Shown: piece by piece, positions 1,362 to 53,100 of the stretch
How the letters are laid out: each line of letters starts with the position of its first letter
How positions within the stretch are numbered: position 1 is the first letter of the stretch
Source of the DNA: Malacoraja senta
Lineage: Eukaryota
DNA length: 64,000 nt
Assembly (NCBI GenBank): GCA_038087875.1
Contig: CM075992.1
Span: forward strand, 4,900,001 to 4,964,000
Reading direction: 5' to 3'
Made by a program: the position numbers and the translations under genes
Notes under the pieces: generated by a model
What the model was told of the DNA's origin: nothing
The model's database searches: none
What the model saw: the letters and a program-made list of their open reading frames with translations, nothing else

Positions 1362-2531
1362 TCATGGAGTCATCCAGTGAGGAAACAGGCCATTTGGCCC
1401 TACTCATCCATGCCGACCGAGGCTTGGATAGATTGGATGTGAAGAGGATGTTTCCACTAGTGGGAGAGTCTAGACTTGAGGTCACAGCCTCAGAATAAAG
1501 GACGTTCCTTTAAGAAGGAGATGAGGAGGAATTACTTTAGTCAGAGGGTGCTGAATCTGTGGAACTCTTTGCAACAGAAGGCTGTGGAGGCCAAGTCAAT
1601 GGATATTTGTAAGACAGAGATAGATAGATTCTTGATTCGTACGGGTGTCAGGGTCCACGAGGAGAAGGCATGAGATTGGGGTTTGGAGGGAGAGATAGAT
1701 CAGCCATGATGGAATGGCGGAGTAGACTTGATGGGCCGAATGGTCTATTCTACCCCTATCTGCTAGTTTCCGCTCCTGTCACTTATGACCTTAAGACAAG
1801 ATGCTCCGTGAGTCCCATTTGGCCCATATTCCTCTAAACTTTTCCTATTCATGTATATGTCCAAATGTTTTTAAAATGTTGTTGATGTGCCTGCCTCAAC
1901 TAGCTGCTCTGACAACCAATTCCATACAACCACCACCCTCTGAGTGACGAAGTTGCCCCTCGGGTTCTTATTAAATCTTTCCCCTCTCACCTTAAACCTA
2001 TGTCCTCTGATTCTTGATTCCCCTACCCTGGATAAAAGACTGTAAGTTCCTTCTATAACGAACCCTATCTATTCGGCTCATGATTTTATACATCTCTATA
2101 AGATCACCCACCCCTGAGTACCTGGAATAAAGTCCGAGCCTGCCCAACTTTTCGCTACAGCTCAGGTCCTTGAGTCCTGGCAACATCCTTGTAAATGTTC
2201 TCTGCACATCGTTCTAGCTTAAAGACATCCTTCCTGCATTAGGGCGACTCAATAAAAGTTTAGTTTCTTGACTCGTAGTCTGAAGAAGTGTCTGGACCCG
2301 AAATGTCACCCATTCCTTCGCTCCCAAGAAGCTGCCTGCCCTGCTGAGTTCCTCCAACGTTTTGTGTCTATCTTCAGTGAAAGAGAAAGTCTTCAAAGGT
2401 CGAGGGCTTACACGACAAGGGGCTAGATACTGTAAACATTTAAAGTGGTCATGGCAGCTTCAAGCATGGCTAACTAACACTGGTGGGGGAATTGATATTT
2501 GGGGAAGTTCAGCAGGAAAGAATTTTAAGAG

Positions 2532-2717
2532 TTAAAGAAGGAACTGCAGATGCTGGAAAATCGAAGGTACACAAAAATGCTGGAGAAACTCAGCGGGTGC
2601 AGCAGCATCTATGGAGCGAAGGAAATAGGCAACGTTTCGGGCCGAAACTTTGGCTATTTCCTTCGCTCCATAGATGCTGCTGCACCCGCTGAGTTTCTCC
2701 AGCATTTTTGTGTACCT
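2532..2717. mobile_element. Fold-back Penelope-derived short element
   Basis: Perfect 64-bp inverted arms 2565-2628 and 2654-2717; 14-bp direct repeat AAGAATTTTAAGAG at 2518-31 and 2718-31. Confidence 0.8.
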
Positions 2718-4932
2718 AAGAATTTTAAGAGCTCTGATATAGTCAAGTATCAAGTGTATTTAATTTTCAAAATGTAGAATCTCGGAATTGTAGGTGCTGG
2801 TTAATATACAAAAGGATGCAAAGTGCTGGAGTTTCTACCCGAAGTGTCATCTATCCATATTCTCCAGAGATGTTGCCTAGTCTGCTGAGTTGCTCCAGCA
2901 CTTGGTGTCCTTTGTTTTTCATTGCCATATGTGCATATTTTTACAAGCAGCAGAATAACAGGCCTGTAAACACAATTATAGGCAATAGACAATAGGTGCA
3001 GGAGTAGGCCATTCGGCCCTTCGAGTCAGCACCGCCATTTAATGTGATCAGGGCTGATCATCCCCAAACAGTACCCCGTTCCTGCCTTCTCCCCATATCC
3101 CCTGACCGCTATCTCAAAGAGCCCTATCTAGCTCTCTCTTGAAAGTATCCAGAGAACCAGCCTCCACCGCCCTCTGAGGCAGAGAATTCCACAGACTCAC
3201 AACTCTCTTTGAGAAAAAGTGTTTCCTCATCTCCGTTCTAAATGGCTTACTCCTTATTCTTAAACTGTGGCCCCTGGTTCTGGAAACTGTGGCCCCTGGT
3301 TCTGGAACTGTGGCCCCTGGTTCTGGACTCGTAGTCCGAGGAAGTGTTATTAGATATTTGGATTTAATAACAACAGGACTACAGACAAACTTCAAGAATT
3401 TTATAATCCAACACTGCTAAACCAGGAACCATATTTGGTTGGCAAACACAGTCACATGATACAAATTAGGACACAGGGCAACAGTCCTATCTGTTGATCT
3501 TTAATTTTTTAAGCCCTGTAGTTTGTACGTGCAGGTTGGCAGCTTTGATAAAGCTCGGTAGGGTTCGAGAATAAATATATATTTTGTTGCTGATCCATAT
3601 CAAGCCACTCCCTACACCCACACGACTGAATTAGCATTAGTCCAGTAGGTTGTAAAAACTCTCTGATTGCCTGGGACTTTCAGCGCACGTATAGTTTTAC
3701 ACGCATGTCAATACTCCAGTTGAGCACCTGCCACCCAGACTCTTCCGACCAGGGTTCAGGGTTAACGACAGTCTTCCTATTGTTTGTGGAATCACAATGT
3801 GACCCTGGTACTCAATGTGTAGTTTAGTTTAGTGAAACAGTCGGGATCGAACCCGGGTCTCCGACGCTGTAAGGCAGCAATGTGTGGCCTTTAGTTTTTT
3901 TTTAGTTTTAGTTTAGTTTAGAGATACAGCGTGGAAACAGACCCTTCAGCCCACCGAGTCCACATCGACCAGTGATCCCCACACTATAACACGATCCTAC
4001 GCACACTAGGGACAATTTACACTTAGAACCAAGCCAAATAACCTACAAACCTGTACGTCTCTGGAACTCTCTGCCACAGAAGGTAGTTGAGGCCAGTTCA
4101 TTGGCTATATTTAAGAGGGAGTTAGATGTGGCCCTTGTGGCTAAAGGGATCAGGGGGTATGGAGAGAAGGCAGGTACAGGATACTGAGTTGGATGATCAG
4201 CCATGATCATATTGAATGGAGGTGCAGGCTCGAAGGGCCGAATGGCCTACTCCTGCACCTATTTTCTATGTTTCTATGTTTCTATGTCTTTGGAGTGTGG
4301 GAGGAAATCGAAGATCTCGGAGAAAACCCACGCAGTCAAAGGAGAACGTACAAACTCCGTACAGACAGCAGCTGTAGTCGGGATCGAACCCGGGTCTCTG
4401 GTGCTGCAAGTGCTGTGAGGCAGCAACTCTACCGCTGTGCCACCGATCCACCCGTTCTCCTGCACCATTCAGTCTCAGTCAAGAAAATGAAGTTGTGCCA
4501 ACTCAGGGACACAAAATGACCGGCACTTCAGCCCACCGAGTAAATGCTGACCATCCATCATCCAATCACACTAGTTCTATGTTATCCCACTTTCTCATCC
4601 ATCCCCAAGAGTAATCATAAAACAGTCACTAATAACCTCAAGAGACTGTCTAAGGGTGGAACCTTTACCCAACAGTGTGAGGAGAATGTAGGACCTGCTA
4701 CTTTAAGAATACAAATCTAATCAGGGGAAATCAAAGGTATAGCAGCTCTCTGAGATGTGCAATTCACTTCCTGTTCCTTATCATTTGGCTTCCCCTTGAT
4801 TGAATTTTAAATTCTTAAAGTGGCAAGTCCTGCATTCTTCTCACACTGTTAAGTAAAGGCACCACCCTTGGACTGTCTCTTGACGTTATTAGTGACTGTT
4901 TTAAGATTACTGCAGAGCTTCCTTCACAAATA

Positions 4933-6085: not shown

Positions 6086-8519
6086 GGGTGAGGGAGAAGG
6101 GAATGGGAGCTACACTAACATAGACTCCCGAAACCATAAATGCCAGCATGAAGGGGTTGGGCTGAATGGCCTTTTAGGGTATCCTAGGTAGCACTATGCA
6201 GGCTGGATGATTAATTATCTGTTCTTTGAAAGAGTTGGAAGGGACGTGGCTTAACCAAAGATTTCGACCCGTCTCTGGTTCCTGTCTGGGCTCACAGAAT
6301 CTCAAGGGAAAGTCGGGATAACATCCAGCTGGGATGCGGAGAGACTTCCTTTCCCTGAATCTTCGCCAGCTCTCTTGGGGGTTGGAAGCATATCCATCGG
6401 AATTGATCCTGGTGTCCACTCCCCCCTCTGTTGTCATTGTGTGGCCTTCTCACACTTGCAATCTGCACTTGCATGAGGAATGTTTTTCTCCCCCCACTCC
6501 TGACCAGAGAGCTCCACTCTATGATCTTTGCTCCTGACTCTCAGTCTGAACAAGGGTCTCGACCCGAAATGTCACCCATTGCTTCTCTCCCGAGATGCTG
6601 CCTGTCCCGCTGAGTTACTCCAGCATTTTGTGTCTTATCTTGCATGAGGAATAATGGTGTGAGTAAGATACTGAAGCAAGCAACCCAATGCCCAGAAAGA
6701 AGTTAACTCCACAAAGGAGAGGGGAAGGGGCAATGATTGGATCGACCAAGGAAACAGCGGGCACAGTTCAAGTTGAAGCTAGACACAACATGCTGCAGTA
6801 ACTCAGTGAGTCAGGCAGCATCTCTGGAGAAAAAGAATAGGTGATGTTTCGGGTCGGAACCCTTTCTCAGACTGAAAGTTGAGGTGGGGGTGGGGGAATA
6901 AACTGGAGATGAGATAAGGCCAGAACAAATCAGGACATCCAAAGTGCTTGTAGGTTTTCTTTCTATAGGGTTCAGAAGAATACATGAATCATTGCTACCC
7001 CAGAGACCACGAGGCTTGTGTCAGTTTGAGGTCTTGACCTTCAAGCACTCTGTTCCTCCGATGTCCAAAAGCAGTGCTGGTGTGTACTGCAGGCACTGGT
7101 GGATATAATCATTGATGCCTGTCTTTGAGTGGTGGCTCCCATGATATGAGAAGTGGTCCATATTGTCCAAGGTCTCGTCATGTCAGTGGGTGGTGTTGTG
7201 AGGGATAGGTTGGTAGAGGACCTAGTTTCATGGATATTAATCTCTTCTGTGTTTCAATGATCTGGAGCTCAGCCTTCGAACATGCCTGCCTGCAAACGTC
7301 ATGGTGCTCTGCAGCTCGATGTTCAAAGCTAGGGTGACATTGGTTCTGGAGTGGAGGCAAGAGAGTTTGAACAGCTTCCCGTTTGTGCTGTGTGAGCAGG
7401 AACTGCAGATGAAATGTGTACAATGGTTAAACCAGCATCTGCAGACCCTTCTTCAGACTGCAGATGCAGGTTTAAACTGAAAATAGACACAAAATGCTGG
7501 AGTAACTCAGCGGGCCAGGTAGCATCTCTGGATAGAAGGAATGGGTGAGGTTCTGGGTTAATACCCTTCTTCAGACTGAAGTCTGGGGAGAGGGAGATAG
7601 AGATAAGAAAGTTTAAGGTGTGAAAACAAGACAAAGTGGGGTGGAGTTCAAGGAACATGTAGAATAGATCATTGTTAGCTGGGCGAAGGTAACAACAAAG
7701 TAACAGATAAAATGTAATCAGAGACAGTCAGACTGTTCGGTTGTCCTATTGATTGATTGAACCTTTTCACGCAAAATGTGGTGGGTGTATGGAACGAGCT
7801 GCAGGAGGAGGTAGTTGAGGCAGGGACTATTGCAAAGTTTAAGAAACAATTAAACAGGTACATGGATGGAACAGGTTTAGAGGGATTATGGGCCCAACGC
7901 AGACAGGTGAGACTAGTGTAGATGGGACGGTGTGAGCAAGTTGGGCTAAAGCGCCTCTTTACATGTTGTATGACTCTATGATTAGGTCTACCTTTGTAGG
8001 AACATGCAACCAAAAGGAGTGAGAAAAGCCAAAAGGACTGAGAGAAGTGTGTACAGTATCTATCTTTTGGTTACGATAATGTTCGAATGAAACTATCTAC
8101 CTGATCGATTAAAGTTTTGCAATCAAAGAGAAATGAATACACTGGAGAGAGATGCTAAGTGTTGGAGTAACTCAGAGGGTCTGATGAAGGGTCTCAGTCG
8201 AAACCTCACCTATTCCTCTTCTCCAGAGATGCTGCCTGTCCCGCTGATTTACTCCAGCATTTTGTGTCTATCTTCGGTGTAAACCAGCATCTGCAGTCTC
8301 TTCTTATACAAAGAATGATCAATGTTTGGTTCATCTTCAAAGTAAAATCCTGCAGCTGAATTCATGACATTTTGAAAAAGGTAAAGTTTGAGAAGGATGA
8401 GTCTTAATGGGTTTTTGGATTATTTTAGGATTTCTAGAATAAACAAGGCTATTTTGCATTGTTGAAATCCATTGATAGTGTCATCACCAGCCATAGAAGC
8501 TGTGATTAATGCCCTGAAA

Positions 8520-9158
8520 CACTATTTCGCTGAACACATCCTTTCAGTCCGCCTAAACCTACATGATCTCCCAGTTGCTAAACACTTTAACTCCCCCTCC
8601 CATTCCCATACTGACCTTTATGTCCTGGACCTCCTCCACTATCAGAGTGAGGCCCAATGCAAATTGGAGAAACAGCACCTCATATTTCTCTTGGGCAGCT
8701 TACACCCCTGCGATATGATTTTCGACTTCTCTAACTTGAAGTAACCCTTGCTTTCCCTCTCTCTCCATCCCCCTCCCATCCCAGTTCTCTGACTGAAGAA
8801 GGGTTTCGGCCCGAAACGTTACCTATTTCCTTCGCTCCATAGATGCTGCTGCACCCGCTGAGTTTCTCCAGCATTTTTGTGTACCTTCCAGTTCTCTGAC
8901 TAGTTTGACTGTCCTGATTAGATGTTACTTTGTATGCCTCGTTGTCACCTTCCCTGAGCTAACAATGATCTATTCTACATTCTCCTTGAACTTCAACCCC
9001 TTTGATCTCTCATTTTCACACCTCACCCTTCCATATCTCTTGTTTCTCTCAGTCCGAAGAACGGTCTCAACCCGAAACGTCGCCCATTCCTTCTCTCCAG
9101 AGGTGGTGCCTGAGTTAGTAGTATTGCTGCCTGAGTTACTCCAGCATTGTGTGTCTCT
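8520..9158 (+). mobile_element. Penelope-like 3' fragment with a nested short terminal unit
   Basis: FAEH...[19 protein letters not shown] tail plus 3' UTR. Nested unit 8795-8887 is flanked by duplicated CCAGTTCTCTGACT (8781-94, 8888-8901). Confidence 0.8.
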
Positions 9159-12100
9159 CTTCGCCCTGAAACAGAGGTTCAGTCAAAGTGATCTGAATCG
9201 TAGTCTGTCTTTTTCCTGGCTTTCAGCAGCTGTTTCAGAAAGCTATTGCGTTGCCATGCCACAGGTATCGGTATTGGACACCATTACCTCTTGAACTCAA
9301 AAGGAGCCAGACCACTGTTTATTTTACCTGCAGAAAATGTCCCGGTGCCAGTCGAGGACATTTTCAGCTAGGATTCCTGCTTCTGGTGTTGTCAGGGGGA
9401 TATTTCATTGGCAGGGGGATATTTCATGATCTGGGGACCAGAGACATACATTGTGAGGTGCATTAAATGTAAACACCACTGTAACATAAGAAGCTGGTTT
9501 TCAAGGAGCAAAGTCACAGATGACAATGACATTAATTAGATAACAGATTTTTAGCAAAGAAGGAAATGCATTGACCAGATAATGTGGAGAATTCTGAATC
9601 CAATACCTTCCATCTCATTAGCAAGAATAGGGCGAAGAATCTCTCAAGTATTTGTGGAGCACATGATAGGTCTCGCTGTGGGTTAGATCCCTGACTGAGT
9701 AGTGAATGCTTATTGTTTAGGATTCTGTTTTATGATTAACATTGTAGGCACCATTGCAATTGGATCCCTGGTTGAACCTTCACCTTGGGAGGCAGGAAGG
9801 AAAGTGTATAGGCACACTTGCTCAATTATATTAACACACACGCTTTTGGTCAAGACACTTTACAAGAATGCGTTATTATGTTAAGGAAGGTACTGCAGAC
9901 ACTGGTTTAAACTGACAATAGACACAAAAGCTGGAGTAATTCAGCAGGTCAGAGCGCTTTCAAGAGAGAGCTAGATAGGGCTCTTAAAAATAGCGGAGTC
10001 AGGGGATATGGGGAGAAGGCAGGAACGGGGTACTGATTGGGGATGATCAGCCATGATCACATTGAATGGCTCGAAGGGCCAAATGGCCTGCTCCTGCACC
10101 TATTGCCTATTGTCTATTGTCTATTGACAGCATCTCTGGAGAAAAGGAATAGGTGATGTTTCGGGTCGAGACCTTCTTCACACTGAGAGTTAGGGAAAAG
10201 TGAAACGAGAGATATAGATGGTGATGTAGAGCAAATGAATGAAAGATATGCAAAAAAGTAACGAAGATAAAGGAAACGGGCCATTGTTAGCTGTGGGCTG
10301 GGTGAAAAGGACTTGCAGACAATGAGACTCAACAAGACGACTTTGAAGCTAGGGTGGGGGAGGAATGCAAGGAGAGAGGGATTGCAAGGGTTACTTGAAG
10401 TTAGAGAAATCAATATTCCTACCGCTGGGTTGTAAGCTGTTATGTTCCTAAGACTAAGACTAATAAGAGTTCCTAAGACTAATAAATTTGTAAGAACTAA
10501 GGAATCTGTACATAACATTTATTCACAAGTCATAGGCTTCTTTCCTACGTCAGGAATGTAGGTGATAATTATCACCCAGTTAAACACATTGAATCCTATC
10601 TGCTCTGGATCAAAAACAGAGTTTACAAAAACAGAGACTAGTGACAGGCTACAGAAGCAAAGGTTGGCCATTTGGCCCTTTGATCTTGTACACACCTACA
10701 AGCACCATAATGTGTGCCCCATGAATGCATTCCATCACCATGTACCCCGATCCCTACTTGTCCAAAACGCTATCGATCTATGCTCAGACACTGAACATCC
10801 AGTGCCCTCCAAGATGGATTGTATATCGAAAGGGTAAATTGTGGAATTAAAAAGCAAGATTCATACCACACTTCAACCAAAGGTTAATGGTCACACTAGA
10901 TGAGACACATTACATGGTACATCCTTTATCATTTGATAACATAAAGATTTTCCTAGCGCACTAGGGCAACACAGCTGGTAGAGCCACTGCCTCACAGTGC
11001 CAGAGATCTAAGCTCGATCCTGACCTTGGGTGCTGTCAGTGTGGAGTTTGCATGTTCTCCCTGTGACCACATGGGTTTCGTCCGAGTGCTTTGGTTTCTT
11101 CCCACATCCCACAGACATGCGGGTTTGTGGGTTAATTGGCCTCGGTGAAATTGCCCCTATTGTGTAGGGAGTGGATGAGAAAGTGGAATAACACAGAATT
11201 AGTGTGAAGGAGTGATCGATAGTCGGCATGGACTCGGCAGGCCAAAGACCTGTTTCCATGCTGTATCTTTCAGTCCCTAAGTACATTGCAATCAGTTGAG
11301 CACAAAAATGATGACGTCCGGATGCGATTGAACGAGGTTTTCCTCTGAGACAGCAAAGATAGATAGTAGTTATATAGAAGATAGACACAAAATGCTGGAG
11401 TAACTCAGCGGGACAGGCAGCAACTCTGGATGGGAGGAATGGGTGACATTTCAGGTCAAGAATATGTGTTACGGGTTGCTAATGTGCTGTGGTTTTTATG
11501 TTTATTGTTAAATTCTTTAATGTTATCTCTATTTGTGTGCTGCAATGGCAAGTCAAATTTCACTACACCAATTGGTGTACGTGACAATAAATGTCCTTTG
11601 TCCTTTGGTACAAGGTAGCCTGCCCACTGCAGTACCTCTCAGAAGATACAAAGCATAAATACTTCAGCTGTGAGAAACCCGATGAAAGGACTCAACAGCA
11701 CGAAAAGGCTTCATGTGACAGGAAGCTTTTGCAGACAGAGAGAGTGAATGTCTCAGCTGACTATAACCGAAAAAAAACCCGGTACAAATGTGTAAAGCAT
11801 AATGAAAAAGTGAAAGTGAGGGAAGATTAGCTGAGAAGGTCTCCGATTTAAGAATAAGGAGTAAGCCATTTAGAACGGAGACGAGGAAACACTTTTTCTC
11901 ACAGAGAATGGTGAGTGGAATTCTCTGCCTCAGAGGGTGGTGGAGGCAATTTCTCTGGATGCTTTCAAGAGAGAGCTAGATAGGGCTCTTAAAAATAGCG
12001 GAGTCAGGGGATATTGGGAAAAGGCAGGAAACGGGGGTACTGATTTGGGATGATCAGCCATGATCACATTGAATGGCGGTGCTGGCTCGAAGGGCCAAAT

Positions 12101-13766
12101 GGCCTACTCCTGCACCTATTGTCTATTGTCTATTGATGTGGTAAATGTTACGAAAGATTATAGGAAATGTTAGGAAAGATTACATGGATAGGACAGGTTT
12201 GGAGGGATATGGGCCAGACGCAGGCAGGTGGAATTAATGTAGCTGGGACATGTTGGCCAGTGTGGGCAAGTTGGGCCGAAGGGCCTGTTTCCACGCGGTA
12301 TCACTCTATGACTCTATGAACTTATGGATGCATTGAAAGACAGGTCCTAACTCAAAACATTTGTCAATTTCCCTCCGGGGACACTGTCTGATCTTCTGAG
12401 ATCCTCCAGCAGTTTTTTTTTCACTCTTGTGTGCCTCAAAGATTAAGGACTGTGGACACAGGGTCAGGGTTCAGTAATAGGAGAACCTATAAACAAAAGC
12501 CTGTTCTGGGAAGGTGCATATGGATACAGCCAAATTGTGTTCAACATATATATATATTAACAGAACTGTACAGTACAGGAACACGCCCTTCGATCCACAA
12601 TGTCTGCTTAACATGATGCCAAGATAAACTTATCTGTCTGCACATGATGCATACCCCTCCCTTCCTTGCATGTGTCTATCTAAAAACCTCTTAAATGCCA
12701 CTATCATATCTGCCTCCACTACCGCCCCAGGCAACGTGTTCCAGGCCCCCACCACCCTCTGTTAAAAACCTTGCCCCACGCATCAAGTATATTCTGCTAA
12801 AACCTATAAGCATAAATTCCTAATAATGTTGAGGTAATGCCTGCCAATACTGACAACGGTAATAGATACAGCATAGCAATTCTTTCCAAGCTAAACATTC
12901 CTGACCTTCACAATGAAAAGATTAGTTTTTTCACTGTGCCACTTAGTACAATGTAAAACAACACACAAAAAAAACTGAAATAAATACACGTCAATCTTTT
13001 CCTTCAGATGATCTGTTTAACATTGACATGTTACATTTCGGTTTAATGTAACAGGGAACAGTCTGAAGAAGGGTTTCGACCCGAAACGTTGCCTATTTCC
13101 TTCGCTCCATAGATGCTGCCTCACCCGCTGAGTTGCGCCAGCACTTTTGTCTACCAGGGAACTGCGGATGCTGGTTTATACCATAGACACAAAATGCTGG
13201 AGTAACCCAGCGGTTCAGACAGCATCTCTGGAGAGAAGGAATGGGTGACGTTTCGGGTGGAGACCCTTCTTCACACTGATGATGATCCATTACAGACGAT
13301 AAATACCCCGTAGAACAAATCAATGAAAGGTATGCAAAAAGCACTCAGCAGGTCAGGCAGCATATCTGGAGAAAAGGGACGCTACCCTTCTTCGAATTTT
13401 GTTTTAATTGCCATTCATATGTATCTGAATTTTCAATGTGTAGGAAGGAACTGCAGATGCTGGTTTAAACCGAGAGACACAAAATGCAGGAGTAACTAAG
13501 CAGTTCAAAAAACATCTCTGAAGAGAAGCAATGGGTGACGTTTCGGGGTCAAGACCCTTCTTCAGACTCAATAACAATTGAATTTTCAATTATTTATTTC
13601 GGATCTTTTGATATATTTCCTTACAATTGGAAATTAATGCTGACATATGTTTCTGGTCTGATGTGGCAAAATGTGATGACGGTGTGAAGGCTGGTTGACA
13701 TTCGTTTCCTGCCCTACCTTGAGATTGTGTAAAAGCTTTAGACTTGTTTGGTAGTTACAGGGTGTG

Positions 13767-13920: not shown

Positions 13921-15444
13921 AAACTGGCGTACAAAGCGCGTAGAGAAGGAATTTTAAAAAAACTCCAATTTGCAAATAGATCTATTTTTATAAAGCGACG
14001 CTTTCAAGAAAAGACGAAATTAGGCCCTAAAATAACATTTTGTTCAAAGGTCTGACTGCAAAAACATCCATCTTCCCAGCAGGACCTGATGAACGTTTCA
14101 CAGGCCAACACAGATAAATGGTTACAGCTCCCTTTGCCCTATGACTAACTCGCAACAGTTCTAACAGCTTGATGAACCTAGGGTTGCAATGAAAATCCAC
14201 GTTTAAAATATTGAATAGAGTATTAAACTTCATGGACACAGGATAGAACAACATTCAGGATAGAACAACATTGTCATCTGACAGGAATAAGGAATAATGT
14301 ACAAAAATAATGCAAGACCTCATTGTCCTTGTGAAATAGGCTTTCGGTATTTTAGTTTAGTTTCTTGTCACGTGTACCAAGGTACAGTGAAAAGCTTTAG
14401 TTGCGTGCTATCCAGTCAGCAGAAAGACGATATATGAATACAATCGAGCCATTACAGTGTATAGATACATGATAAGGGAATAATATTTAGGTTTTTTTAA
14501 ATTTCAAAATAGACTTTATTCAAGTAATAAATCTGAAGGGTGTGTTTTAATACTTATTTAATACTTAATATTTAAGTATTAAATAAGTATTAAATATTTA
14601 ATACTTTTGCCTTGGCAGTGAAATAGATACAGGAAGTACACAGAATTACACGGCTTGACATCTGTGAAGTTTTGGATGAAGCTTCAATATGCAGTTCCAG
14701 TTTTGACTGTATTTGATTCGACTATTTCTGTGTAGTTGCAGCTATGAGGCATGACATAATTTATGTTATGATGATGTCAGAGGAAAGTGACACAAATCAT
14801 GAGATGAGCTAATTTGGATAATTTTATTGTGTGTTTGTACACACGTATAATAAGTCCACCATTTTCTTCTGTAAAGGCAATGCCTTTTACAAAGCGGTTA
14901 CCAGTTCAGTGAATTGAAATGGAGTTTGTACTTTATGTAGTTCTTCATGTCTGTGACACTGATCAGTGTGTATATAGGTTAATTGACCTCTGTAAAATTG
15001 CCCATAGTGTGTTAGGGAAAGTGGGATAACATGGAAATAGTGTGAAGGGGTGATCTATGTTTGGTGGGGGCCAAAGGGCCTGTTTCCATTGAAGATAGAC
15101 ACAAAATGCTTGAGTAACTCAGCGGGTCAGGCAGCATCTCTAGAGAAAAGGAATAGGTGATGTTTCGGCGCAAGACAATTTCTTCAGACGTCACCTATTC
15201 CTTTTCTCCAGTGATGCTGCCTGACCCGCTGAGTTACTCCAGCATTTTGTGTCTATCTTCAGTGTAAACAAGTTGCAGTTCCTTCCTACATGGGCCTGTT
15301 TCCATGCTATATATCTAAAACCAAAGCTAACACTTTATACGCCCCATGTCTATTGTCAGACACCGATCATTTTCAATAAAGGGAGAGATGATTCCAAAGC
15401 TCTCTGCCTTTAGGCAGTTTCCATAAGGAGTAGCTGATATGTCG

Positions 15445-16062
15445 GCATATCCCCTACAACTCTCACAAACCTCTACAGATGCACCATAGAAAGCATTTTA
15501 ACAGGATGCATCGCAGCTTGGCTTGGGAACATCTCCATCCAAGACCGCAAGAAATTGCAGCAAATTGTGGACGCAGCCCAGACCATGACACAAACCAACC
15601 TATTGACTCCATTTATACCTCACACTGCCTCGGCAAGGCCAGCAGCATAATTAAGGACGAGTCGCACCCTGGCCACTCCCTCTTCTTCAATCTCCCATCA
15701 AGCAAAAGGTATAGAGGTGTGAACAAGCACATTTCCAGACTCAGGGACAGTTTCTTGCCAGTTGTTATCAGGCAACTGGATCATCCTACCACAACCAGAG
15801 AGCAGTGCTGAACTACTATCTACCTCTTTGGTGACCCTTGGACTATCCTTGTTTAAGAAAGAACTGCAGATGCTGGAACTTGGACTATCCTTGATCAGAC
15901 TTTGCTGGCTTTACCCTGCACTAAACGTTATCCCCTCATCTTTTATCTAAACACTGTAAATGGCTCGATTGTAATCATGTATTGTCTTTCTGATGACTGG
16001 ATGGCATGCAACAAAAGCTTTTCAATGTACCACGGTACACGTGACAATAAACTAAACTGAAC
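15445..16062 (+). mobile_element. Rex1-like LINE 3' fragment (related minus-strand copy at about 33304-33740)
   Basis: SIYTSHCLGKASSIIKDESHPGHSLF..LPS.KRY; ends GACAATAAACTAAACTGAAC. Confidence 0.75.
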
Positions 16063-16541
16063 TATGGAAATTGACCAAACATAGGTATGAGTAATGCATA
16101 AAGAGACCCTAAGCAAAGAAAAAAGTGCCGGAGGAACTCAGTGGGTCAGGCAGACTTGAAAAAGGGACCCAACCCAAAACACCGCCTGTACATTCTATCC
16201 TCTGAGTTTCTCCAGCACTTTGGGTAGTGGACAAGATTCAAGCATTTCCAGTCTCTTGGATCACTATAATGTGCTCAGTGGTCTTCTTTGAGTCCTGCTT
16301 CCACCATGAACACCTCAAATCTGTTGTTCAAATCCCTCTACAGCTTTGTCCCTCCCCATCAATAAACACCCCCTCCCAATCCAAAGCTCTTTTTGTAATT
16401 AATGTTGCATTCATCTTTTTGATTTTAGAATAGGAATTTCCTTGCTTTCTTAAAACTTCTTTAAACAGTCACTTCCACCAAGCATTGGGGCATCTGACTG
16501 AATGCCATCTTCTTTGACAATGTGCCGTAGCATTCTAGTAA

Positions 16542-16794
16542 GCAAAATGTGTGAGAAAGAACTGCAGATGCTGGATAAAATCAAAGGGAGACACAAAATG
16601 CTGGAGAAACTCAGCGGGTGCGGCAGCGTTTTGGAATGAATGGGTGGAATTGGTGACGTTTCGGGTCGAGACCCTTCTTCAGACTGATTCTTCAGTCTGA
16701 TCAGTCTGAAGAAAGGTCTCGACCCGAAACGTCACCCATTATTTCTCTCCATAGATGCTGCCTCACCCGCTGAGTATCTCCAGCATTTTGTGTC
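16542..16794. mobile_element. Fold-back Penelope-derived short element with two opposed hammerhead-like motifs
   Basis: Inverted copies meet near 16690; flanking duplication TAGCATTCTAGTAA at 16528-41 and 16795-808. Confidence 0.8.
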
Positions 16795-17716
16795 TAGCAT
16801 TCTAGTAAAGTCTGAAGAAGGGTCTAGACACGAAACGTCACTTTTTTTTTCCTCCAGAAATGCTGTCTGACCCGCTGAGTTACTCCAGCTTTTGTGTGAT
16901 CATTCCTATAAAGCATCTTTATATATTTGACAGTGTATAAGGCGAAAGAAAATGGGCACTGCAAATTGCCCCTTAAGTGTGGATGAGTGGTAGAAACTGG
17001 GTGAGTGATGGGATAGTGAAGGAGAATTGGTTTAAAGCAATGTTGATGGGCAGCACAGAGTAGATGGGCTGAAGGGCCTGTTACTATGCTTGTATACACC
17101 TGTGGCTCTATAAAAAGACTGGTTTGAGCCGTGACTAAAATCTGAGGAAAGACGTAGGCAAGTTTATTGCACCATATTATCTGCAAAAATGTTTCAACAG
17201 CAGGGTTCAGGAGAGGGCCTGAAGAAAGGTCCTGACCCGAAACGTCACCTACTCATGTTCTCCAATTATGCTGCCTGACCCGCTGAGTTACTCCAGCATT
17301 TTGTGTCTTTCCTTGGTAAACCAGCATCTGCGTTTCCTCCTTTCTACAAATGTTGTTGCGATTAGTGTTTATACAATGCTATTTTCACACTGAAGAGAAC
17401 TGGCGAGGTTTACCGAAAACAGATTGCATCTCTGATATGCAACGTCTATCCTTGCAGTAATAATGACCCAAATCCAGCAACTAACCCAAGTTCTGGTAAA
17501 TTTAGAAGCGGGTTACGTAGCTGTGAATCTCAAATATAACTCCAGTCCATTAGATAATGTAAAACACTGCCCCTTCCACAGACTCCACCATCAATAATCC
17601 CCAAACAAACATTATTATGTGTCGGAAAGAACTGCAGGTGCTGGTTTAAATCGAAGGTAGACACAAAAAGCTGGAGTAACTCAGCGGGACAGGCAGCATT
17701 TCTGGAGAGAAGGAGT

Positions 17717-17750
17717 GGGTGACGTTTCGGGTCGAGACCCTTCTTCAGAC
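17717..17750 (-). ncRNA. Minimal type-I hammerhead ribozyme-like motif (representative consensus copy) in a Penelope terminal unit
   Basis: Minus strand reads GU-CUGAAGA-A-GGGUC-UC-GACCC-GAAAC-GUC-ACCC: core CUGANGA, 5-bp stem II, GAAA, palindromic minimal helix III and GUC triplet. Confidence 0.6.
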
Positions 17751-23128: not shown

Positions 23129-23539
23129 TATATAAGATAAACACAAAATGCTGGAGTAACTCAGCAGGACAGGCAGCATCTCTGGAGAGAAGGAATGGGT
23201 GATGTTTCGGGTCGAGACCCTTCTTCAGACTCTAAATATATATGTATAAACACATCCTTGTTTTCCCCCATCGCCTTCCACCTATATCCCTCCTGCTGGC
23301 TTTACATTCTACTCATCTTCTCTCCATATCTGCCACCCTTTCATCTCCTGTTCACCTCTAGCCTCTCACTTACTCCACAAATCTGCCAATCCATTTTCCC
23401 TCCCACACCTGTATCCACCTATCACTTGCCGGGTCTTGTCCCACCCTACCGCTTTTCCAGCTACCCCCATCCCTCCACCCTTTCCGCCACACAATCAATC
23501 TGAGGAAGGGCCCCGACACGAAACGTCACCTATTCATTC

Positions 23540-28870: not shown

Positions 28871-29796
28871 CTCTATAAGATCACCCTTTAGTTTAGTTTA
28901 AAGATGCAGCATGCATACAGTCCCTTCCACCCAACGAGTCCACACCAACCATCGATCACCTGTTTATATCAGTTCCACATTATCCCACAATCACTTCCAC
29001 TCCCTACACACTAGGGGCAATTTACAGAAGTCAATTAACCTACAAACCTGCTTATTATCTTTGGGATGTGGGAGGAAACCCGAGTACTGTGAGGAAACCC
29101 AAGCAGTCACAGGTTGAGTGTGCAAACTTCGCACAGACAGCACCCGGTCAGGATCGAACCTGTGTCTTTGACGCTTTGAGACGGCAACTCTAGCAGCTGT
29201 GTTAACGTGCTGCCCTTTAACTTTGGTTGAACAAAAAACATGAATCTGAAATTAACAATAAGGTTAAAAATCCTTCCTTGTTGGAAAAATCCTAACTGGT
29301 CATTAATATCCTTCTGAGGAGCTGCATAATGGATTATTGGAGTTTTGCTGTGATTCCGTTACAACATGTTTCCCCGCCCATTCCCACACTGACCTTTCTG
29401 TCGTGGGCCTCCTCCATTGTCAGTGAGGCCCAATGCAAATTGGAGGAACAGCTCCTCATATTTCACTTGGCCAGCTTACACCCTAGTGGTATGAACATTG
29501 ACCTCTCTAACTTCAAGTAACCCTTGCTTACCCCCTCTCTCCATCGCTGTTCTCTGACCAGTCTGACTGTCTCTGAGTACATTTTATCTCTGTTTGCTTT
29601 CCTGTTACCTTCTCCCAGCTAACTATGATCTATACATTTTCCTTGATCCCCATCCCCTTGTCCTGTTCTCACACCTTACACTTCCTTATCTATGAATCTC
29701 CCTTTCCCCTGAGTCTCGACCCGAAACATCGCCCATTCCTTTTCTCCAGAGATGTTGCCTGTCCTGCTGAATTACTCCAGCATTTTGTGTCTATCT

Positions 29797-34843: not shown

Positions 34844-35434
34844 CAGGGGTGGGGAACCTGCGGCCTTAAGGCTGCATGCGGCCTTTGAGGCCATTAAGTG
34901 CAGCCTTTTGAATGAATCCAAATTTTGTGGAACAAATCCTTTTATTTTAATTTAAGAAGGATCTGCAGATGCTGGAAAATCGAAGGTAGACAAAAATGCT
35001 GGAGAAACTCAGCGGGTGAGGCAGCATCTATGGAGCGAAGGAAATAGGTGACGTTTCGGGTCTGGACCCTTCTTCAGACGCTGAAGTAGGGTCTTGACCC
35101 AAAATGTCGCCTATTTACTCTGCCTCACTCGCTGAGTTTCTCCAGCATTTTTGTCTACCTTTTATTTTTATTAATATGTTTTTGTTCGTCTTTTATTATT
35201 TTTATTTTTATCTTAAAATGAACGTATTTAAAATACCAACGAGTAAAAAAGATTCAACGAAATAATCCTCCCCGACTGACGGCCACAATTAAAACATTAG
35301 TAAGTCATGAGGGCTATTTTAACAAAATAATGTACATTTTGAAGTATATCTAATTGAAGTTTCTTGGATGCGGCCTTATTAGATTACAGCTAACTTGATG
35401 CGGCATTCCAACATGAAAAGGTTCCCCACCCCTG
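34844..35434. mobile_element. hAT MITE with a nested Penelope fold-back unit (about 34955-35160)
   Basis: TIR CAGGGGTGGGGAACCT; TSD GTGTTGAG/GTGTAGAG. Confidence 0.85.
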
Positions 35435-47100: not shown

Positions 47101-50100
47101 GGTTCTTGGGGTGGAGAGGGGTGATAGCAATATAAAGGGGAGGGTAGTGTCTTGTGTCTACTGTTTGTGGGTAAGGGTGTCTGTTTAGTGTTCAGCCATG
47201 AGCGAATGGCGGTGCGGGCTCGATGGGCCTGGTGGTCTACTCTCGCACCTACTTTCTATGTTTCTATGTTTCTAGATGAGGGTGGTGAATCTAAGGAATG
47301 CATTGCCACAGAAGGCTGTGGAGGCCAAGTCAATAGATATTTTTTTTACTTCAGAGATAGATAGATTCTTGATTAATACAGGTGTCAGGAGTTATGGGGA
47401 GAAGGCAGGAGAATGGGGTTAGGAGGGAAAGATAGATCAGCCATGATTGAATGGCAGAGTAGACTTGATGGGCTGAATGGCCTAATTCTGCTCCTATCAC
47501 TTATGAATGCAAAGCATTTTACTGTACGTTGATAAATGTGGCAACAAAGTATCACAGAAGCATTGGGAAGGACCGGTATCTGACCCAAGCTTCGTTTACA
47601 CCGACCTGTACGAAATGCCTTCATCTTCCTTTAGAATGCCATAGTCTTTGGAGATGGAATGCGTCAGGTCGGCCACCAGTGGAACCTTCATGTGGCCAAT
47701 GCCACCCTGTTTCCGAGGTGTGTTGATCCTGAAAACACATGGAGACAAGAGCTTTGAAAACGCATGAATATCCAGGGTAGAGATGTGCAAACCCATGCAA
47801 AAACTCCATACAGGCAGCACCCATGGTTAGGATCGAACCTGGGTCTCTGGCGCTGTAAGGCAGCAACGTTACTGCTGCACCACCTTGCACCCCCCCTCCC
47901 CTTCAGGTTGTGTCCCTTCTTCAGCATGCAGCATAGGGTCCACTCTGACCTTCGAGTTCCCATTCTTGCATGATCCTATCCCAACTCAGTTTATTGCCTC
48001 TATATTCCCCATGAATTGCCACCTGCTGATTTTCTATCTCAATGCAACTGGGGACAATTTAAGGATCCATTAATCTACTAACCCAGGCAGAAACAGAAGC
48101 CCATGTGGTCACAGGAAGAATGTGCAAACTCCACTGACAGCAGAGGTCAGGATTGAACATGTGTAGCTGGAGCTATAGGGGGCAGCAGCTCTACAAGCCG
48201 CATCAACCAGTAGTATACCTGCTGCCAGAGAAATGCAATATTGTAGAGCATCTAGTTCAACAAATGAAAAAGCAACTCAAAGACCTTAGGCCTGGTTCTG
48301 TTTTGGAAGCATCTTATGAAGTTCAGCTTCCACGGGCCAGGAGCCTCTTTACCCATGAACACAATTGAAAGCCCGGGGTAGAATTGAAAGCTGGGCGGCA
48401 TGGTGGCACAGCGGTAGAGTTGCTGCCTTACAGCGCCTGAGACCCGGGTTCGATCTTAACCATGGGCGCTGCCTGTATGGAGTTCATACGTTCTCCTTGT
48501 GACTGCGCAAATTTTCTCTGGGTGCTCTGTGTTCCTCACATACTCCTAAGATGAACAGGTTCGTAGGTTCATCGACTTGGTATAATTGTAAATTGTCCCT
48601 AGTGTGTTAATGTGCGGGGATCGCTGGTCGTCACGGACCCGGTGGGCCGAAGGGCCTGTTTCTGCGCTGTGTCTCTAATCTAAATAAAATAAACACGTAG
48701 TGAATTGGTTTACCGATTTCCAGCCTTTCACCCAAACCATTGTGTTCAGTGTTTAACGAGTCAAAAGGTTAGCCCCAAGTTCAAGCGTACACTCAAACAC
48801 AGCATCAAAGCAGAGGAAGACTTACCAGGCTAAGTGACTGAAGTGAGAGTCTGTTGAGGCACCAATAACTTCACAGTTGATCTTGCGAAACTCATCCGCC
48901 CGGTCACTAAATGCGATGATCTCCGTCGGGCAGACGAAGGTGAAATCCAGTGGATAGAAGAAGATCACAACATACTTTCCTGGATTGCAGAAGAGAGAGA
49001 GAGAGTTAACATTACACACTATTTCTCAATCTGGCTTTGGGTATTGATTAGTGTGCAAACAAATCTGCAAGTTAAGTCCAATGCTGGAGAAACTCAGCGG
49101 GTGAGGCAGCAACTATGGAGCGAAGGAATAGGCGACATTTCGGGTCGAGACCCTTCTTCAGAATGTCCCAACCTCTGTTGACTTCTGAATGGAGTTAGCA
49201 CAAACCACATCTGCACAGGTGATAGAATCTGGGGGTGCGGGGGAGGGGGGAGGTGGAGTACCAGGGACATAAGGAACTGCAGAGGCTTGAGTTTAGTTTA
49301 GAGATAGTGTGGAAATAAGCCCTTCAGCCCACCAAGTCCATACCGACCATGATCACCCGTCACTTCCCTACCATTCCTTGACCTCACTATCTCCATCGCA
49401 GGTGATAGACTTCTTACCGACATCCATTACAAACCTACCAACTCCCATGGCTATCTGGACTACACTTCTTCCCACCCTGCTTCCTGTAAGGACTCCATCC
49501 CCCACTCCCAATTCCTCAGTTTACACCGCATCTGCTCCCAGGATGAGGCGTTCCACACCAGGGCATCCGAAATGTCCTCATTCTTCAGGGAACGGGGTTT
49601 CCCCTCCTCCACTATAGATGAGGCTCGCACCAGGGTCTCTGCCATACCCCGCAACACTGCTCTCTCCCCATCCCCCCACTCACAACAAGGGCAGAGTCCC
49701 CCTAGTCCTCACCTTTCACCCCACCAGCCATCACATACAACAAGTGATCCTCCGTCAGTTTCGCCACCTCCAACGTGACCCCACCACTCGCCACATCTTC
49801 CCATCTCCCCCCCATGTCTGCCTTCCGCAAAGACCGCTCCCTCCGTAACTCCCTTGTCAATTCTTCCCTTCCCTCCCGTACCACCCCCTCCCTGGGTATT
49901 TTCCCTTGCAACCGCAAGAGATGCAACACTTGTCCCTTCACCTCCCCCCTCAACTCCATTCAAGGACCTAAGCCGTCGTTCCAGGCGCGACAGAGGTTCA
50001 CCTGCATCTCCTCCAACCTCATCTATTGCATCTGCTTCTCTAGATGTCAGCTGATCTACATCGGTGAGACCAAGTGGAGGCTTGGCGATCGTTTCGCCGA

Positions 50101-53100
50101 ACACCTCCGCTCGGTCCGCATTAACCAACCTGACCTCCCGGTGGCTCAGCACTTCAACTCCCCCTCCCATTCCGTATCTGACCTCTCTGTCCTGGGTCTC
50201 CTCCATGGCCACAGCGAGCAACACCGGAAATTGGAGGAAATGCACCTCATATTCCGCTTGGGCAGTCTACATCCTGGGGGCTTGAACATTGAATTCTCCC
50301 AATTCTGCTAGCCCTTGCTGTCCCCTCCCCTTCATCAGCCCTCTGGTTGTCTCCTCCCCTCCCCCAGCCCTCGGGCTCCTCCTGCGCCTTTTTTCCTTTC
50401 TTCTCCCCACCCCCTAACAGTCTGAAGAAGGGTTTCGGCCCAAAACATTGCTATTTCCTTCGCTCCATAGATGCTGCTGCACCCGCTGAGTTTCTCCAGC
50501 TTTTTTGTGTACCTTCACCCATACACTAGTTCTATCTGAGGCACTAGGGACAATTTACGGAAGCCAATTAACCTACACACCTGCACATCTTTGGAATGTG
50601 GGGGAAAACCGAAGCACTCGGGGGGAACGTACAAACTATCCACGGATAATACCCATAGTCAGGTTCTCTTGCACTGTAAGGCAGCAACTCTACTGCTGTG
50701 CCATTGTGCTGTCCATTCTCGAGTGGGGATAAGTGTGGGTGCAACTCAGCAGCCCAGATTAGCATCGTTGTCCCTAACGGGTTGTCACTGAACTCAAAGA
50801 AAAAACATGTCATTGGACTTAGATGCACTGATACTTTCTATGTAAAATCCAAAGATCTTCACTGTACCTAGTGAGGACAATAAATATCATCATCATCACA
50901 ACCAGGCAGAATTGGAGGATAGATAGTCAATGCTTCAGGTCAAGACCCTTCTTCTGAAATGCATCACCTCACTCCAGGGAAAGTGGTCCCAGCTTACAAT
51001 CTCCTTGTAACACGAGCCCTCCGGTCTCAGTAATATACTTGTGAATCTTTTCCATGCCTCCTCTCATCACATCTGACTAGGACTGTGCACAATATTCCAG
51101 ACAATGTCATTATCTGTCTATTCCCTGCTATGATGTTGCCCGACCTGCCGAACCCCTCCAGCACTCTGTGAAGAGTAGAGGGGAGCGTGCAGAGAATGAA
51201 TGGTAGTGGAACTGTGTGCATGGCAGGCAGACTGGGTGGGCCAGCAAGCCTGCTTTGAATGGCACGCATGTGCCTACAAATAGGCTGACATCCTGCCACA
51301 ACTTCCTTTAAAATGGAGGATTCACTTCTCTTAAAAGATAAAAGCAAAACTATTCATAGTTGACTCACTGTCCTGCATGTTTCTCAATAGGCCGCTTAAA
51401 CAAAGTCAGCATGACTGTGCAGGGAAAATCAAGGCACATGAACTGATTTGAGGTTTTGAAGAGGATTTACAAAGCAGTAGATGACATCTCCTTAGAGGCT
51501 TTTAACACAGTCTCGCCAAGTAGACACAAAAGGGCTTGGTTTTGGTGGAAAGAGTATGGTCGCGGAGGTTGGTTTTTTCAGATCAGCAGCCTGTGGCCAG
51601 TGGGATCAGCATTGGGGCCACTGTTATTCCTATGTCATGTGGATGAGAATTTAGATGGCACAAAGAGCAAGTGTGCAGTTGACCAAAGTGGTGGCATGAT
51701 AGAGGCAGTGAAGAAGGTTGTCCAAGGTTACAACTGATCCAAATCAAAAGGGAAATTGGGCCAAGAATGGCGAAGAAAAAACCCAATGTTGGCAAGTGTG
51801 AAGTGATGCGTTTTGTAAACTTAATATCAGGGTGGGACATTTGCAAATAGCAGGGCCCAGGCAAGTGTTGCAGAATAAAGCTGTAGGGTCTTGTGCATAG
51901 GGGCTCCCTGAAAATGTGGACAAGGCAATGAAGGCATGGAGATGCTTGCCACCAAAGGGACAAGGCATGTGGTACAAGAGATGGGACATCGCTGTAATGC
52001 TGTACAAGACATTGCTGTGATCGCACCTGGAATATTGTGTACAGTTCTAGTCACAAGGCGTGGAAAAGATTCACAAGGATATTGCTGAGAGTGGAGGGCT
52101 CTAGTTACAAGGAGACAATATAGACTGGGACCATTTCCCCTGGAGCAGAGGATGGTCAGGACTGAACTTATAGAAAGTGTAATTATACTCCTTGTGATTT
52201 ATGCAAAATGGATTGCCGATCTTTTTCGCAGGGTCAGAGGCCAAAATAGGGGACATGGCTAAGGTCATAAGGAATAGGAGTAGAATTACGCCATTCAGCC
52301 CATCAAGTCTTCTCTGCTATTCAATCATGGCTGATCTATCTCTCCCTCCTAACCCCATTCCCCTGCCTTCTCCCCATAACCTGTGACACCCAAACTAATC
52401 AAGAATCTGTTAAGGTGAAAGTAGAAAGAGTTGAAGGGACCCAAGGAGCAGGTCTTTCCACCCCCAATCCCATCAGATAGTGGTGGGTACATGGACCACA
52501 CAGCAAATGGTAGAGTGGGTACAATTACAATGCATAAAGATATTTGGACAGGTACATGGACAGATATGAATGGTTTGGAGGGATAAAGGTCAAGCATGGG
52601 CAAATGGGACTAGCTCAGGGCGTTAGCTACAGATGAATTGGGCCAAATGCCCCACTTCCATGCTACAAAACCTGTACCTGTACCACCAGAACACATTGCA
52701 TCCCTAGGTGGGAAAGAGGACAGTACAGGACCAGCCCCTTTGGCCAGCAATGCCCATTGCAAACATGATGCTATGGTAAACTAATCTCCTCCGATCGCAC
52801 GCAATTCAAATCCCTCTATTCCTTGCATTTCCATGTGCCTATCCCAAAGCCTCTTAAATGCCACTCACACCTGCCTCCAGCACCTCTGGTAGTGGGTTCC
52901 AGTCATCCTTCACCCTCCAAAAAGAAACACCCCACATATCTTCATTAAACGTTTCCCCTCTCACCTTAAAACCACGCCTTCTAGTTTTTGAGATATCCAT
53001 ACAGTTGGGGGGGGGGGGGGGGGGGAGAAGGTTCTGACTGTTTACCGCATCTGTTCCTCCATTTACTACACCCCCATCACATCTCCCGACAGCCTCCAGT

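What the first reader, a model, noticed from the sequence alone, without database searches (positions are those of the whole stretch)
17717..17750. The most abundant short repeat carries a minimal hammerhead ribozyme motif
Seen: roughly 50-60 copies by eye of a 90-150 bp unit. Intact copies start CUGAAGA-A-GGGUC(UC)GACCC-GAAAC-GUC (e.g. 17750-17717 minus, 16686-16652 minus, 13061-13093, 8793-8824, 55987-56020). Stem II variants keep pairing (GGGUUUCGGCCC; GGGUCCAGACCC near 35060). The same unit terminates the Penelope GIY-YIG fragment at 50420-50515. Known: Penelope-like elements carry minimal type-I hammerheads with a palindromic, near-absent helix III thought to cleave as dimers, and an extra nucleotide between A9 and G10.1 is tolerated in a viroid hammerhead. 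Inference: this genome may hold a very large population of ribozyme-headed non-autonomous Penelope derivatives.
Basis: partly seen in the sequence, partly recalled or inferred. Interest (0 to 1): 0.7.

Follow-up and report, generated by a model that had tools for sequence, protein, structure and literature searches.

The report
Ribozyme-tipped Penelope stubs, cartilaginous fish
The commonest short repeat here is the end piece of a known kind of jumping gene (a Penelope-like retrotransposon) that carries a known minimal self-cutting RNA motif; most copies look like dead, decaying by-products, but their very regular ends give a testable clue to how these elements insert.

Summary
The motif is real. 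The repeat gives 90 pieces in 70 insertions covering 11.7% of the window; shuffles give none. It is the pseudo-LTR end of a Neptune-type Penelope-like element: it ends GIY-YIG fragments here, and 19 of 80 loci encoding relatives of that protein carry the same minimal type-I hammerhead about 100-210 nt after the ORF, with compensatory changes in helices I and II. The commonest relative motif matches the published Acropora Neptune ribozyme. So the ribozyme is a new member of a known kind. Activity is untested and doubtful: helix I is 2 bp, only 6 copies pass a strict descriptor, core CpGs decay like other CpGs, there is no intact tandem dimer, and RNA reads from related species span the cut site. 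The 'non-autonomous family' reading is unproven. Copies start at the ribozyme's 5' edge, not at its cut, end at two fixed sites about 40 nt apart, and have 10-15 bp target duplications. Twenty are head-to-head pairs, 18 with the tail on exactly one arm. Best reading: short cDNAs of the transcript leader, primed from both nicked strands.

The parts
17719..17750 (-). Minimal type-I hammerhead motif of the cited copy: helix I 5' strand 17750-17749, CUGAAGA 17748-17742, extra A 17741, helix II 17740-17729 (4 bp, loop CUCG), GAAA 17728-17725, ACGU palindrome 17725-17722, predicted cut between 17721 and 17720, helix I 3' strand 17720-17719
   Evidence: sequence; passes strict descriptor; numbering follows PMC4209133
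17653..17718 (-). Body of the unit, up to the first common 3' end (about +92 from C3); inferred first reverse-transcription start site
   Evidence: 42 of 90 pieces end at +79..+105; start-site role inferred from PMC11167929
17617..17652 (-). Optional 35-40 nt 'tail' up to the second common 3' end (about +131); inferred second start site
   Evidence: 37 of 90 pieces end at +115 or later, 1 between the two zones; the same split in RNA reads of related species
49353..50311 (+). 5'-truncated, frameshifted Penelope-like ORF remnant: end of RT region, Cys linker, GIY-YIG endonuclease
   Evidence: 62% identity to a Mobula hypostoma protein and 44-54% to seven unnamed ones; tblastn; GIY-YIG weak, E 0.012
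50312..50516 (+). Pyrimidine-rich 3' UTR (50312-50419) then a decayed copy of the unit without tail (50420-50516)
8493..9163 (+). Second Penelope 3' fragment (GIY-YIG remnant 8493-8741, UTR, unit 9052-9163) with a young unit inserted in its UTR at 8795-8887 between 14-bp target duplications
29376..29796 (+). Third Penelope 3' fragment ending in a partly deleted unit
16528..16897 (.). Head-to-head pair (16547-16684 minus with tail, 16704-16796 plus without) between 14-bp duplications, followed by a tandem copy 16810-16897; both plus copies have a helix II mismatch
2518..2731 (.). Young head-to-head pair meeting inside helix II, tail on the minus arm only, 14-bp target duplication
15076..15305 (.). 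Head-to-head pair joined by a 2-nt overlap, tail on the plus arm only, 14-bp target duplication
34938..35172 (.). Head-to-head pair (starts at -2 and 0), tail on the minus arm, 15-bp duplication with 1 mismatch; the minus arm passes the strict descriptor
55975..56093 (+). Young single copy without tail, intact motif (GUU triplet, U.G in helix II), 10-bp target duplication
13049..13276 (.). Single copy 13061-13153 (intact motif) inserted in the tail of another copy (13158-13276 minus)
15837..15893 (-). Tail-only insertion of 27 nt between 15-bp target duplications

Best explanation
The unit is the pseudo-LTR end of a Neptune-type Penelope-like retrotransposon of a cartilaginous fish, and its first 32 nt are the element's inherited minimal hammerhead (shown by position, homology and covariation; about 0.93). 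The short copies are most likely one-step, dead-end products (inferred; about 0.6). Step 1, inferred: a promoter in the 3' end of longer copies makes RNA that begins 2-3 nt before the ribozyme core. Step 2, inferred from the anole element: the element's protein binds this leader and starts reverse transcription internally at about +92 or about +131. Step 3, shown as a footprint: the endonuclease makes a staggered cut (10-15 bp duplications) and copying runs to the RNA 5' end, giving 95 or 135 nt inserts. Step 4, inferred: when both nicked strands are extended, one from each start site, the two cDNAs meet near the ribozyme and join head to head, leaving the tail on one arm only. The template was uncleaved RNA, so self-cleavage does not set either end. 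The ribozyme is kept in the master lineages and probably cuts only as a dimer or with the protein's help (about 0.5); inserted copies decay without selection.
For: Unit ends GIY-YIG fragments at 50420, 9052, 29713 and 40322. Same motif on the same strand 101-210 nt after the endonuclease match in 19 of 80 related loci; 2 of 50 shuffles gave one locus. 5 of 9 pairs change on both sides across families, score 0.463 against 0.181 +/- 0.022. 49 of 90 pieces start at -2..+2, 2 of 90 at +26..+30; shared sequence fades between -2 and -5. Two 3' end zones, also in reads of related species and in the related loci. Tail on exactly one arm in 18 of 20 pairs, p = 2e-4. 17 of 70 insertions have flanking repeats of 10 bp or more against 1-3 in 6 controls; 3 of the 17 I judge artefacts. 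The anole element cuts and extends both strands, starts internally at two sites flanking the tail and does not need cleavage (PMC11167929). In related loci a TATA box lies 37-39 nt before C3 in 33 of 58 hits, 0.015 expected per window, which by the usual spacing (recalled) puts the start just before helix I.
Against: No transcription start was measured; the lay found no pile-up of read starts anywhere, including at -3, though fragmented poly(A) libraries from other species are a weak test. The window's own long copies have no TATA box near the motif; the initiator-like TCAGT is a recalled consensus and reads equally well as a splice acceptor. The reference used for the start count begins at -2, so about ten long copies are inside the 49. 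In 4 of 20 pairs neither arm starts within 6 nt of C3 and the second arm is usually cut shorter. Only about 14 of 70 insertions keep a clear duplication. No full-length element and no whole genome were available. The covariation set was hand-picked (25 rows, about four independent families).
Confidence: 0.6

Rival explanations
1. Self-propagating non-autonomous family: the 95-135 nt unit carries its own internal promoter and reverse-transcription start sites and is copied from short copy to short copy by the Penelope protein, like a SINE.
For: Short copies outnumber UTR-linked ones about 6 to 1; several subfamilies; reads on the unit are roughly 7-20 times deeper than on the ORF in run X21; D. 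virilis Penelope has an internal TATA-less promoter (PMC2377424 passages).
Against: The subfamilies I could sort have UTR- or ORF-linked members in this same window (50422; 9054, 40323, 29703; 41404). Unit reads in X21 and X24 lie about equally on both strands, as for passive read-through. No tRNA gene in the window. Internal priming explains fixed ends without a short master.
Confidence: 0.2
2. The fixed 5' end comes from splicing: pyrimidine tract plus CAG before UCUGAAGA is a 3' splice site, and the template is a spliced RNA with a very short first exon or one on which copying stops at the junction.
For: Long copies show a pyrimidine tract ending in CAG directly before the motif. In D. virilis the intron ends at the 5' end of a 2-bp helix I (PMC4209133).
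Against: No shared upstream exon in short copies (background composition beyond -5); no clear donor near the motif in 11 long copies; the commonest related family has no AG there; no joint into the motif among the 15 of 298 joint rows shown.
Confidence: 0.13
3. Retrozyme: tandem units are transcribed, self-cleave, circularise and reinsert by a rolling-circle route.
For: Carries a type-I hammerhead; tandem retrozymes were reported in one chondrichthyan genome (bioRxiv 10.64898/2026.07.22.740005); one 106-nt tandem dimer exists.
Against: 3 of 26 neighbouring pairs are same-strand, 20 are head to head; the dimer is damaged; no copy ends at the cut; over 1,000 reads per RNA run span the cut site.
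Confidence: 0.05
4. Chance resemblance of an abundant repeat to a loose descriptor.
For: No Rfam hammerhead match; helix I only 2 bp; predicted folds prefer other structures by about 3-9 kcal/mol; no two-sided covariation inside the window.
Against: Same place and strand in distant relatives with compensatory changes; match to a published Neptune ribozyme; 2-bp helix I has published precedent (Culex, Drosophila, Oikopleura rows).
Confidence: 0.02

Closest known systems
Minimal type-I hammerheads of metazoan Penelope-like elements (Cervera and De la Pena 2014, PMC4209133), in particular the Acropora digitifera Neptune motif
   Same: CUGANGA core, extra base after A9, G10.1-C11.1, GAAA-CG-UH palindrome, place in the pseudo-LTR, mostly single dispersed copies, some pairs on opposite strands
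   Different: Helix I is 2 bp (GU/AC or GU/GC) against 3 bp in Acropora; no cartilaginous fish among the chordate rows I saw; local density about 1.1 insertions per kb against about 4,000 (coelacanth) and 9,000 (Xenopus) motifs per genome reported there
Poseidon element of the green anole, PAc (Frangieh et al. 2024, PMC11167929)
   Same: Ribozyme at the pseudo-LTR/ORF junction, two internal start sites with a tail between them, cutting and extension of both strands, insertion into its own repeat, no reads ending at the cut site
   Different: Different clade (Cys linker here); that paper shows the 3' ends, not a fixed 5' end at the ribozyme edge or head-to-head pairs of short units
Canonical Penelope insertion structure (Craig et al. 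2021, bioRxiv 10.1101/2021.04.23.441226)
   Same: 5' truncation, inverted truncated copy at the 5' end, 30-40 bp tail usually on one end only
   Different: Here the same layout is shrunk to 95-135 nt arms with no ORF, and truncation points are concentrated at one place
Non-LTR retrozymes (PMC7229834; bioRxiv 10.64898/2026.07.22.740005)
   Same: Non-coding, hammerhead-bearing, related to Penelope pseudo-LTRs
   Different: Retrozymes are tandem arrays (170-400 nt RNAs, canonical ribozymes in the 2020 paper); this unit is dispersed or inverted, shorter and minimal

Membership tests
PLE minimal type-I hammerhead | Core CUGANGA ... GAAA ... UH in type-I order | tested here: met
PLE minimal type-I hammerhead | Unpaired base between A9 and G10.1; G10.1-C11.1 pair | tested here: met
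   A at +7 in 50 of 54 copies; G-C in 22 of 25 rows
PLE minimal type-I hammerhead | Palindromic positions 15.2-16.2, no monomer helix III | tested here: met
   ACGU; C-G in 23 of 25 rows
PLE minimal type-I hammerhead | Helix I closing the motif | tested here: met
   only 2 bp in window copies (36 of 41 and 34 of 34 paired); 3-6 bp in relatives; 2 bp has precedent
PLE minimal type-I hammerhead | Compensatory change in helices I and II | tested here: met
   across families 5 of 9 pairs (hand-picked rows, about four independent families); not met inside the window alone
PLE minimal type-I hammerhead | Located in the pseudo-LTR of a Penelope-like element | tested here: met
PLE minimal type-I hammerhead | Self-cleavage as a dimer or with protein help | not testable with these tools
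   no pile-up at the cut site in three RNA runs of related species; weak test
Penelope-like element (EN+) | RT plus C-terminal GIY-YIG in one ORF | tested here: met
   remnant only; relatives P0003 and P0005 carry RVT_1 and a weak GIY-YIG
Penelope-like element (EN+) | Optional 30-40 bp tail, inverted 5' copy | tested here: met
   definition
Penelope-like element (EN+) | Full-length partial-tandem copy with two pseudo-LTRs | not testable with these tools
   none in the window; no genome held
Neptune clade | Cys zinc-finger linker between RT and EN, CCHH motif | tested here: met
   C-x4-C-x2-C and invariant C86, C100, H119, H135; the linker is shared with Nematis
Neptune clade | Placement in an RT tree with named references | not tested
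   no named reference proteins in hand; inferred from the Acropora Neptune motif match and vertebrate clade range
Non-LTR retrozyme | Tandem units each with a complete ribozyme | tested here: not met
   one damaged dimer in the window
Non-LTR retrozyme | Circular RNA joined at the cut site | not testable with these tools
   poly(A) and single-cell libraries only
tRNA-derived SINE | tRNA-derived head | tested here: not met
   ARAGORN 0; no Rfam match; the head is the hammerhead

The most novel reading that the evidence does not exclude
The genome of this fish holds on the order of 10^5-10^6 tiny inserts that record Penelope transposition directly: a protein dimer extends both nicked strands from two different start sites on uncleaved leader RNA that begins at the ribozyme's 5' edge, so the inverted repeats and the one-sided tail of these elements come from one twin-priming event, and the minimal hammerhead works mainly as a dimerising or protein-docking RNA head (its ACGU palindrome pairing two templates) rather than as an end-cutter. 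In the boldest form the bare 95-135 nt unit also spreads on its own, as a ribozyme-headed short element that outnumbers all reported minimal-hammerhead families a hundredfold.
Probability: 0.25. Interest if true: 0.75.

Novelty: new member of a known kind. Interest (0 to 1): 0.45.

Why it matters
What the hammerhead does in Penelope elements, and how their inverted ends and one-sided tail arise, are stated as open in the papers read. A family this dense with sharp ends turns both into counting problems on a public genome, and gives small RNA substrates for bench tests. If the local density (70 insertions in 64 kb) holds genome-wide it would be far above the published counts of minimal hammerheads; that extrapolation is not shown. 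Practical point: the head-to-head pairs form long hairpins that score as sub-threshold microRNA precursors and could mislead annotation.

Tried and rejected
Whole-genome count: not possible, no genome held. Rfam: nothing at gathering scores, no hammerhead at E up to 10 in a 7-kb stretch. Viral contigs: 0 exact matches to the motif. Earlier findings of this scan: none by sequence or words. Pfam on the ORF remnant: nothing at 0.01, weak GIY-YIG at 0.012. Search for a full-length chondrichthyan protein: 70 hits, none such by name; the N-termini of 7 of them showed no likeness by eye to the short frame opening at +49 in the youngest subfamily. Cut site as copy end: rejected. Excess core conservation among inserted copies: non-CpG core 299 of 314 against body 1372 of 1538, but the body includes subfamily differences and core CpGs decay (C15.2/G16.2 48 of 62, body CpG 49 of 64), so I read it as constraint on masters, not on copies. 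Branch-point stop of reverse transcription: rejected, it would start copies near -8. Downstream promoter element like that of D. virilis: spacing does not fit an A at -3. Summed contig depth in run X1 was not used as a copy number (the tool says it is not one). Small-share rows were not used. Lunse et al. (dimer cleavage) is not held; I saw only its citation in a review. Literature searches for this element in sharks, skates or rays found no description; passages of the skate genome paper and the Squalomix preprint do not mention Penelope, SINE or ribozymes by the terms searched. Repbase and Dfam could not be checked, supplementary file 1 of PMC4209133 and the supplements of the 2026 preprint were not visible, so prior annotation is not excluded.

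Full report
Numbering. Position 0 is C3 of CUGAAGA; the predicted cut lies between +27 and +28.

1. Observation. The cited copies are there. A profile from 15 copies finds 80 hits; a profile built only from the part downstream of the ribozyme finds 75, and none in 5 shuffles. blastn with a 134-nt reference gives 90 pieces in 70 insertions, 11.7% of the window. It is the most repeated family (depth 69 against 17). The core pattern occurs 27 times with up to one mismatch, 12 exactly, against 0.03 by chance. A strict descriptor passes 6 copies and 1 hit in 20 shuffled windows. Rfam reports nothing.

2. Host and parent element. No genome is held. The ORF remnant at 49353-50311 is closest, among named hits, to a Mobula hypostoma protein (62%), and the repeat decays at CpG; I infer a cartilaginous fish, probably a ray or skate. 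The remnant has a Cys linker and the CCHH residues; the linker marks Neptune and Nematis (passages of bioRxiv 10.1101/2021.04.23.441226). The unit ends GIY-YIG remnants at 50420, 9052, 29713 and 40322 and follows several different pyrimidine-rich UTRs in about ten long copies. No full-length element lies in the window.

3. Is it a hammerhead? I fetched 80 metagenome loci encoding relatives of the endonuclease region, mostly 40-55% identical (the best 80 of 284). In 19 of 80 (62 have 300 nt or more downstream) the strict descriptor hits on the coding strand 101-210 nt after the match; all 20 hits are on that strand; 2 of 50 shuffles gave one locus. A relaxed pattern hits 48 of 80. The window's own distance is about 120 nt. 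On 25 hand-picked rows (11 window, 14 loci) 91.6% of cells pair, 5 of 9 pairs change on both sides, and the score is 0.463 against 0.181 in shuffles and at most 0.111 when slid; the rows stand for about four independent families, so this is strong but not a probability. The commonest relative motif (35 of 58 hits) is the one printed for an Acropora digitifera Neptune element in the supplement of PMC4209133. That paper (parts 1-2 of 4 read; supplement part 2) defines the class, reports low activity for dimers and none for a monomer, and lists no cartilaginous fish among the chordate rows seen.

4. Is it active? Untested, and doubtful for the copies. Helix I is 2 bp. Predicted folds prefer structures that bury the core by about 3-9 kcal/mol in 7 copies. 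Inside the window helix II changes on one side only, and core CpGs decay like body CpGs. A dimer needs two same-strand copies: 3 of 26 neighbouring pairs are same-strand, 20 head to head, 3 tail to tail; the one tandem dimer has a helix II mismatch in each copy. In three RNA runs of two related organisms laid on 49300-50600 there is no pile-up of starts or ends, and 1,195, 1,904 and 1,712 reads carry an intact motif across the cut (1-6% of each run read; fragmented libraries; other species than the best DNA holder). The anole study likewise saw no reads at the cut and found a protein-assisted ribozyme not needed for insertion in vitro (PMC11167929, parts 1-2 of 4).

5. Anatomy of the inserts. 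5' ends: 49 of 90 pieces start at -2..+2 (about ten of them run on into UTR), 2 near +28; in 53 copies T at -1 is seen 41 times, G at -2 36, A at -3 24, and composition is near background beyond -5. 3' ends: 42 at +79..+105, 37 at +115 or later, 1 between, 10 shorter, none at the cut. RNA reads show the same split (tail in 1,251 against 1,046 mixed ends in X21; 2,370 against 2,094 in X24), and the related loci have two end zones too. Of 20 head-to-head pairs 18 have the tail on exactly one arm, one on both, one on neither (p = 2e-4). Flanking repeats of 10 bp or more occur at 17 of 70 insertions against 1-3 in controls; 3 are artefacts by my reading, the rest are 10-15 bp. Two tail-only inserts of 27 and 44 nt have 15-bp duplications.

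6. Mechanism. Shown: the ends, the pairs, the duplications, the link to the ORF. From the literature: inverted 5' copies and a one-sided tail are standard for these elements; the anole protein cuts and extends both strands and starts at two internal sites that bound the tail. Inferred: the template is uncleaved RNA whose 5' end lies at -3..-1, so internal priming on the leader yields only 95 or 135 nt; priming on both strands, one from each site, gives the pairs. In the related loci a TATA box 37-39 nt before C3 (33 of 58 hits) fits a start just before helix I, and the few copies there not attached to an ORF often begin within 26 nt of C3 (6 of 55 hits in a sample chosen for ORFs). The fish copies lack a TATA box; their TCAGT fits an initiator (consensus recalled) or a splice acceptor, as in D. 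virilis. I give the leader by-product model 0.6, a self-propagating short family 0.2, splicing 0.13, a retrozyme 0.05, chance 0.02.

7. Novelty. The ribozyme class, its place and the dispersal of single truncated copies are published. I found no description of this family in five literature searches, but repeat databases and some supplements were out of reach; a 2026 preprint (parts 1-3 of 5 read) reports tandem retrozymes in one chondrichthyan genome. What is new here is the host group, the density and the regular geometry. Verdict: new member of a known kind, interest 0.45.

Noticed in passing
window 15852-15878 and 42026-42069: Insertions made of the tail alone (27 and 44 nt) between 15-bp target duplications; look like very early stops from the second start site.
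   Followed up: partly
window 13049-13276, 7389-7576, 8781-8901: Copies inserted into the tail or UTR of other copies of the same element, suggesting a preference for its own sequence.
   Followed up: partly
window 16651-16739, 15094-15254, 13118-13220: Inverted pairs score as microRNA precursors below Rfam's gathering scores; an annotation trap and a possible source of double-stranded RNA.
   Followed up: no
L008, L012, L022, L024, L038, L043, L073, L077 (about 100-115 nt after the endonuclease match, or inverted upstream): A recurring relative family has C instead of U at core position 4 (CCGACGA); CCAAT and TATA boxes lie upstream of the motif in these relatives.
   Followed up: partly
window 2537-2648 minus and 34953-35079 minus: In the youngest subfamily an ATG at +49 opens a short frame that stays open through the tail; it may be the start of the element's ORF. 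No likeness by eye in 7 full-length relatives.
   Followed up: partly
window 17617-17750 minus, 34953-35079 minus: The purine run at the 5' end pairs with the pyrimidine run near the tail end in predicted folds, closing the long unit on itself and hiding the ribozyme core.
   Followed up: partly
window about 324, 21582, 27193, 29058, 42256, 48428, 58608: Second most repeated family (self-hit depth 15-17), SINE- or LINE-end-like by recall; not analysed.
   Followed up: no
window 46074-46955, 23250-23984, 32460-33212, 38140-38841: Open frames resembling LINE reverse transcriptase ends; weak RVT_1 scores for the first two, none for the third, the fourth not scanned.
   Followed up: partly
window 62619-62808: Perfect 94-nt tandem duplication, possibly recent or an assembly artefact; the window also holds 200 N.
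   Followed up: no
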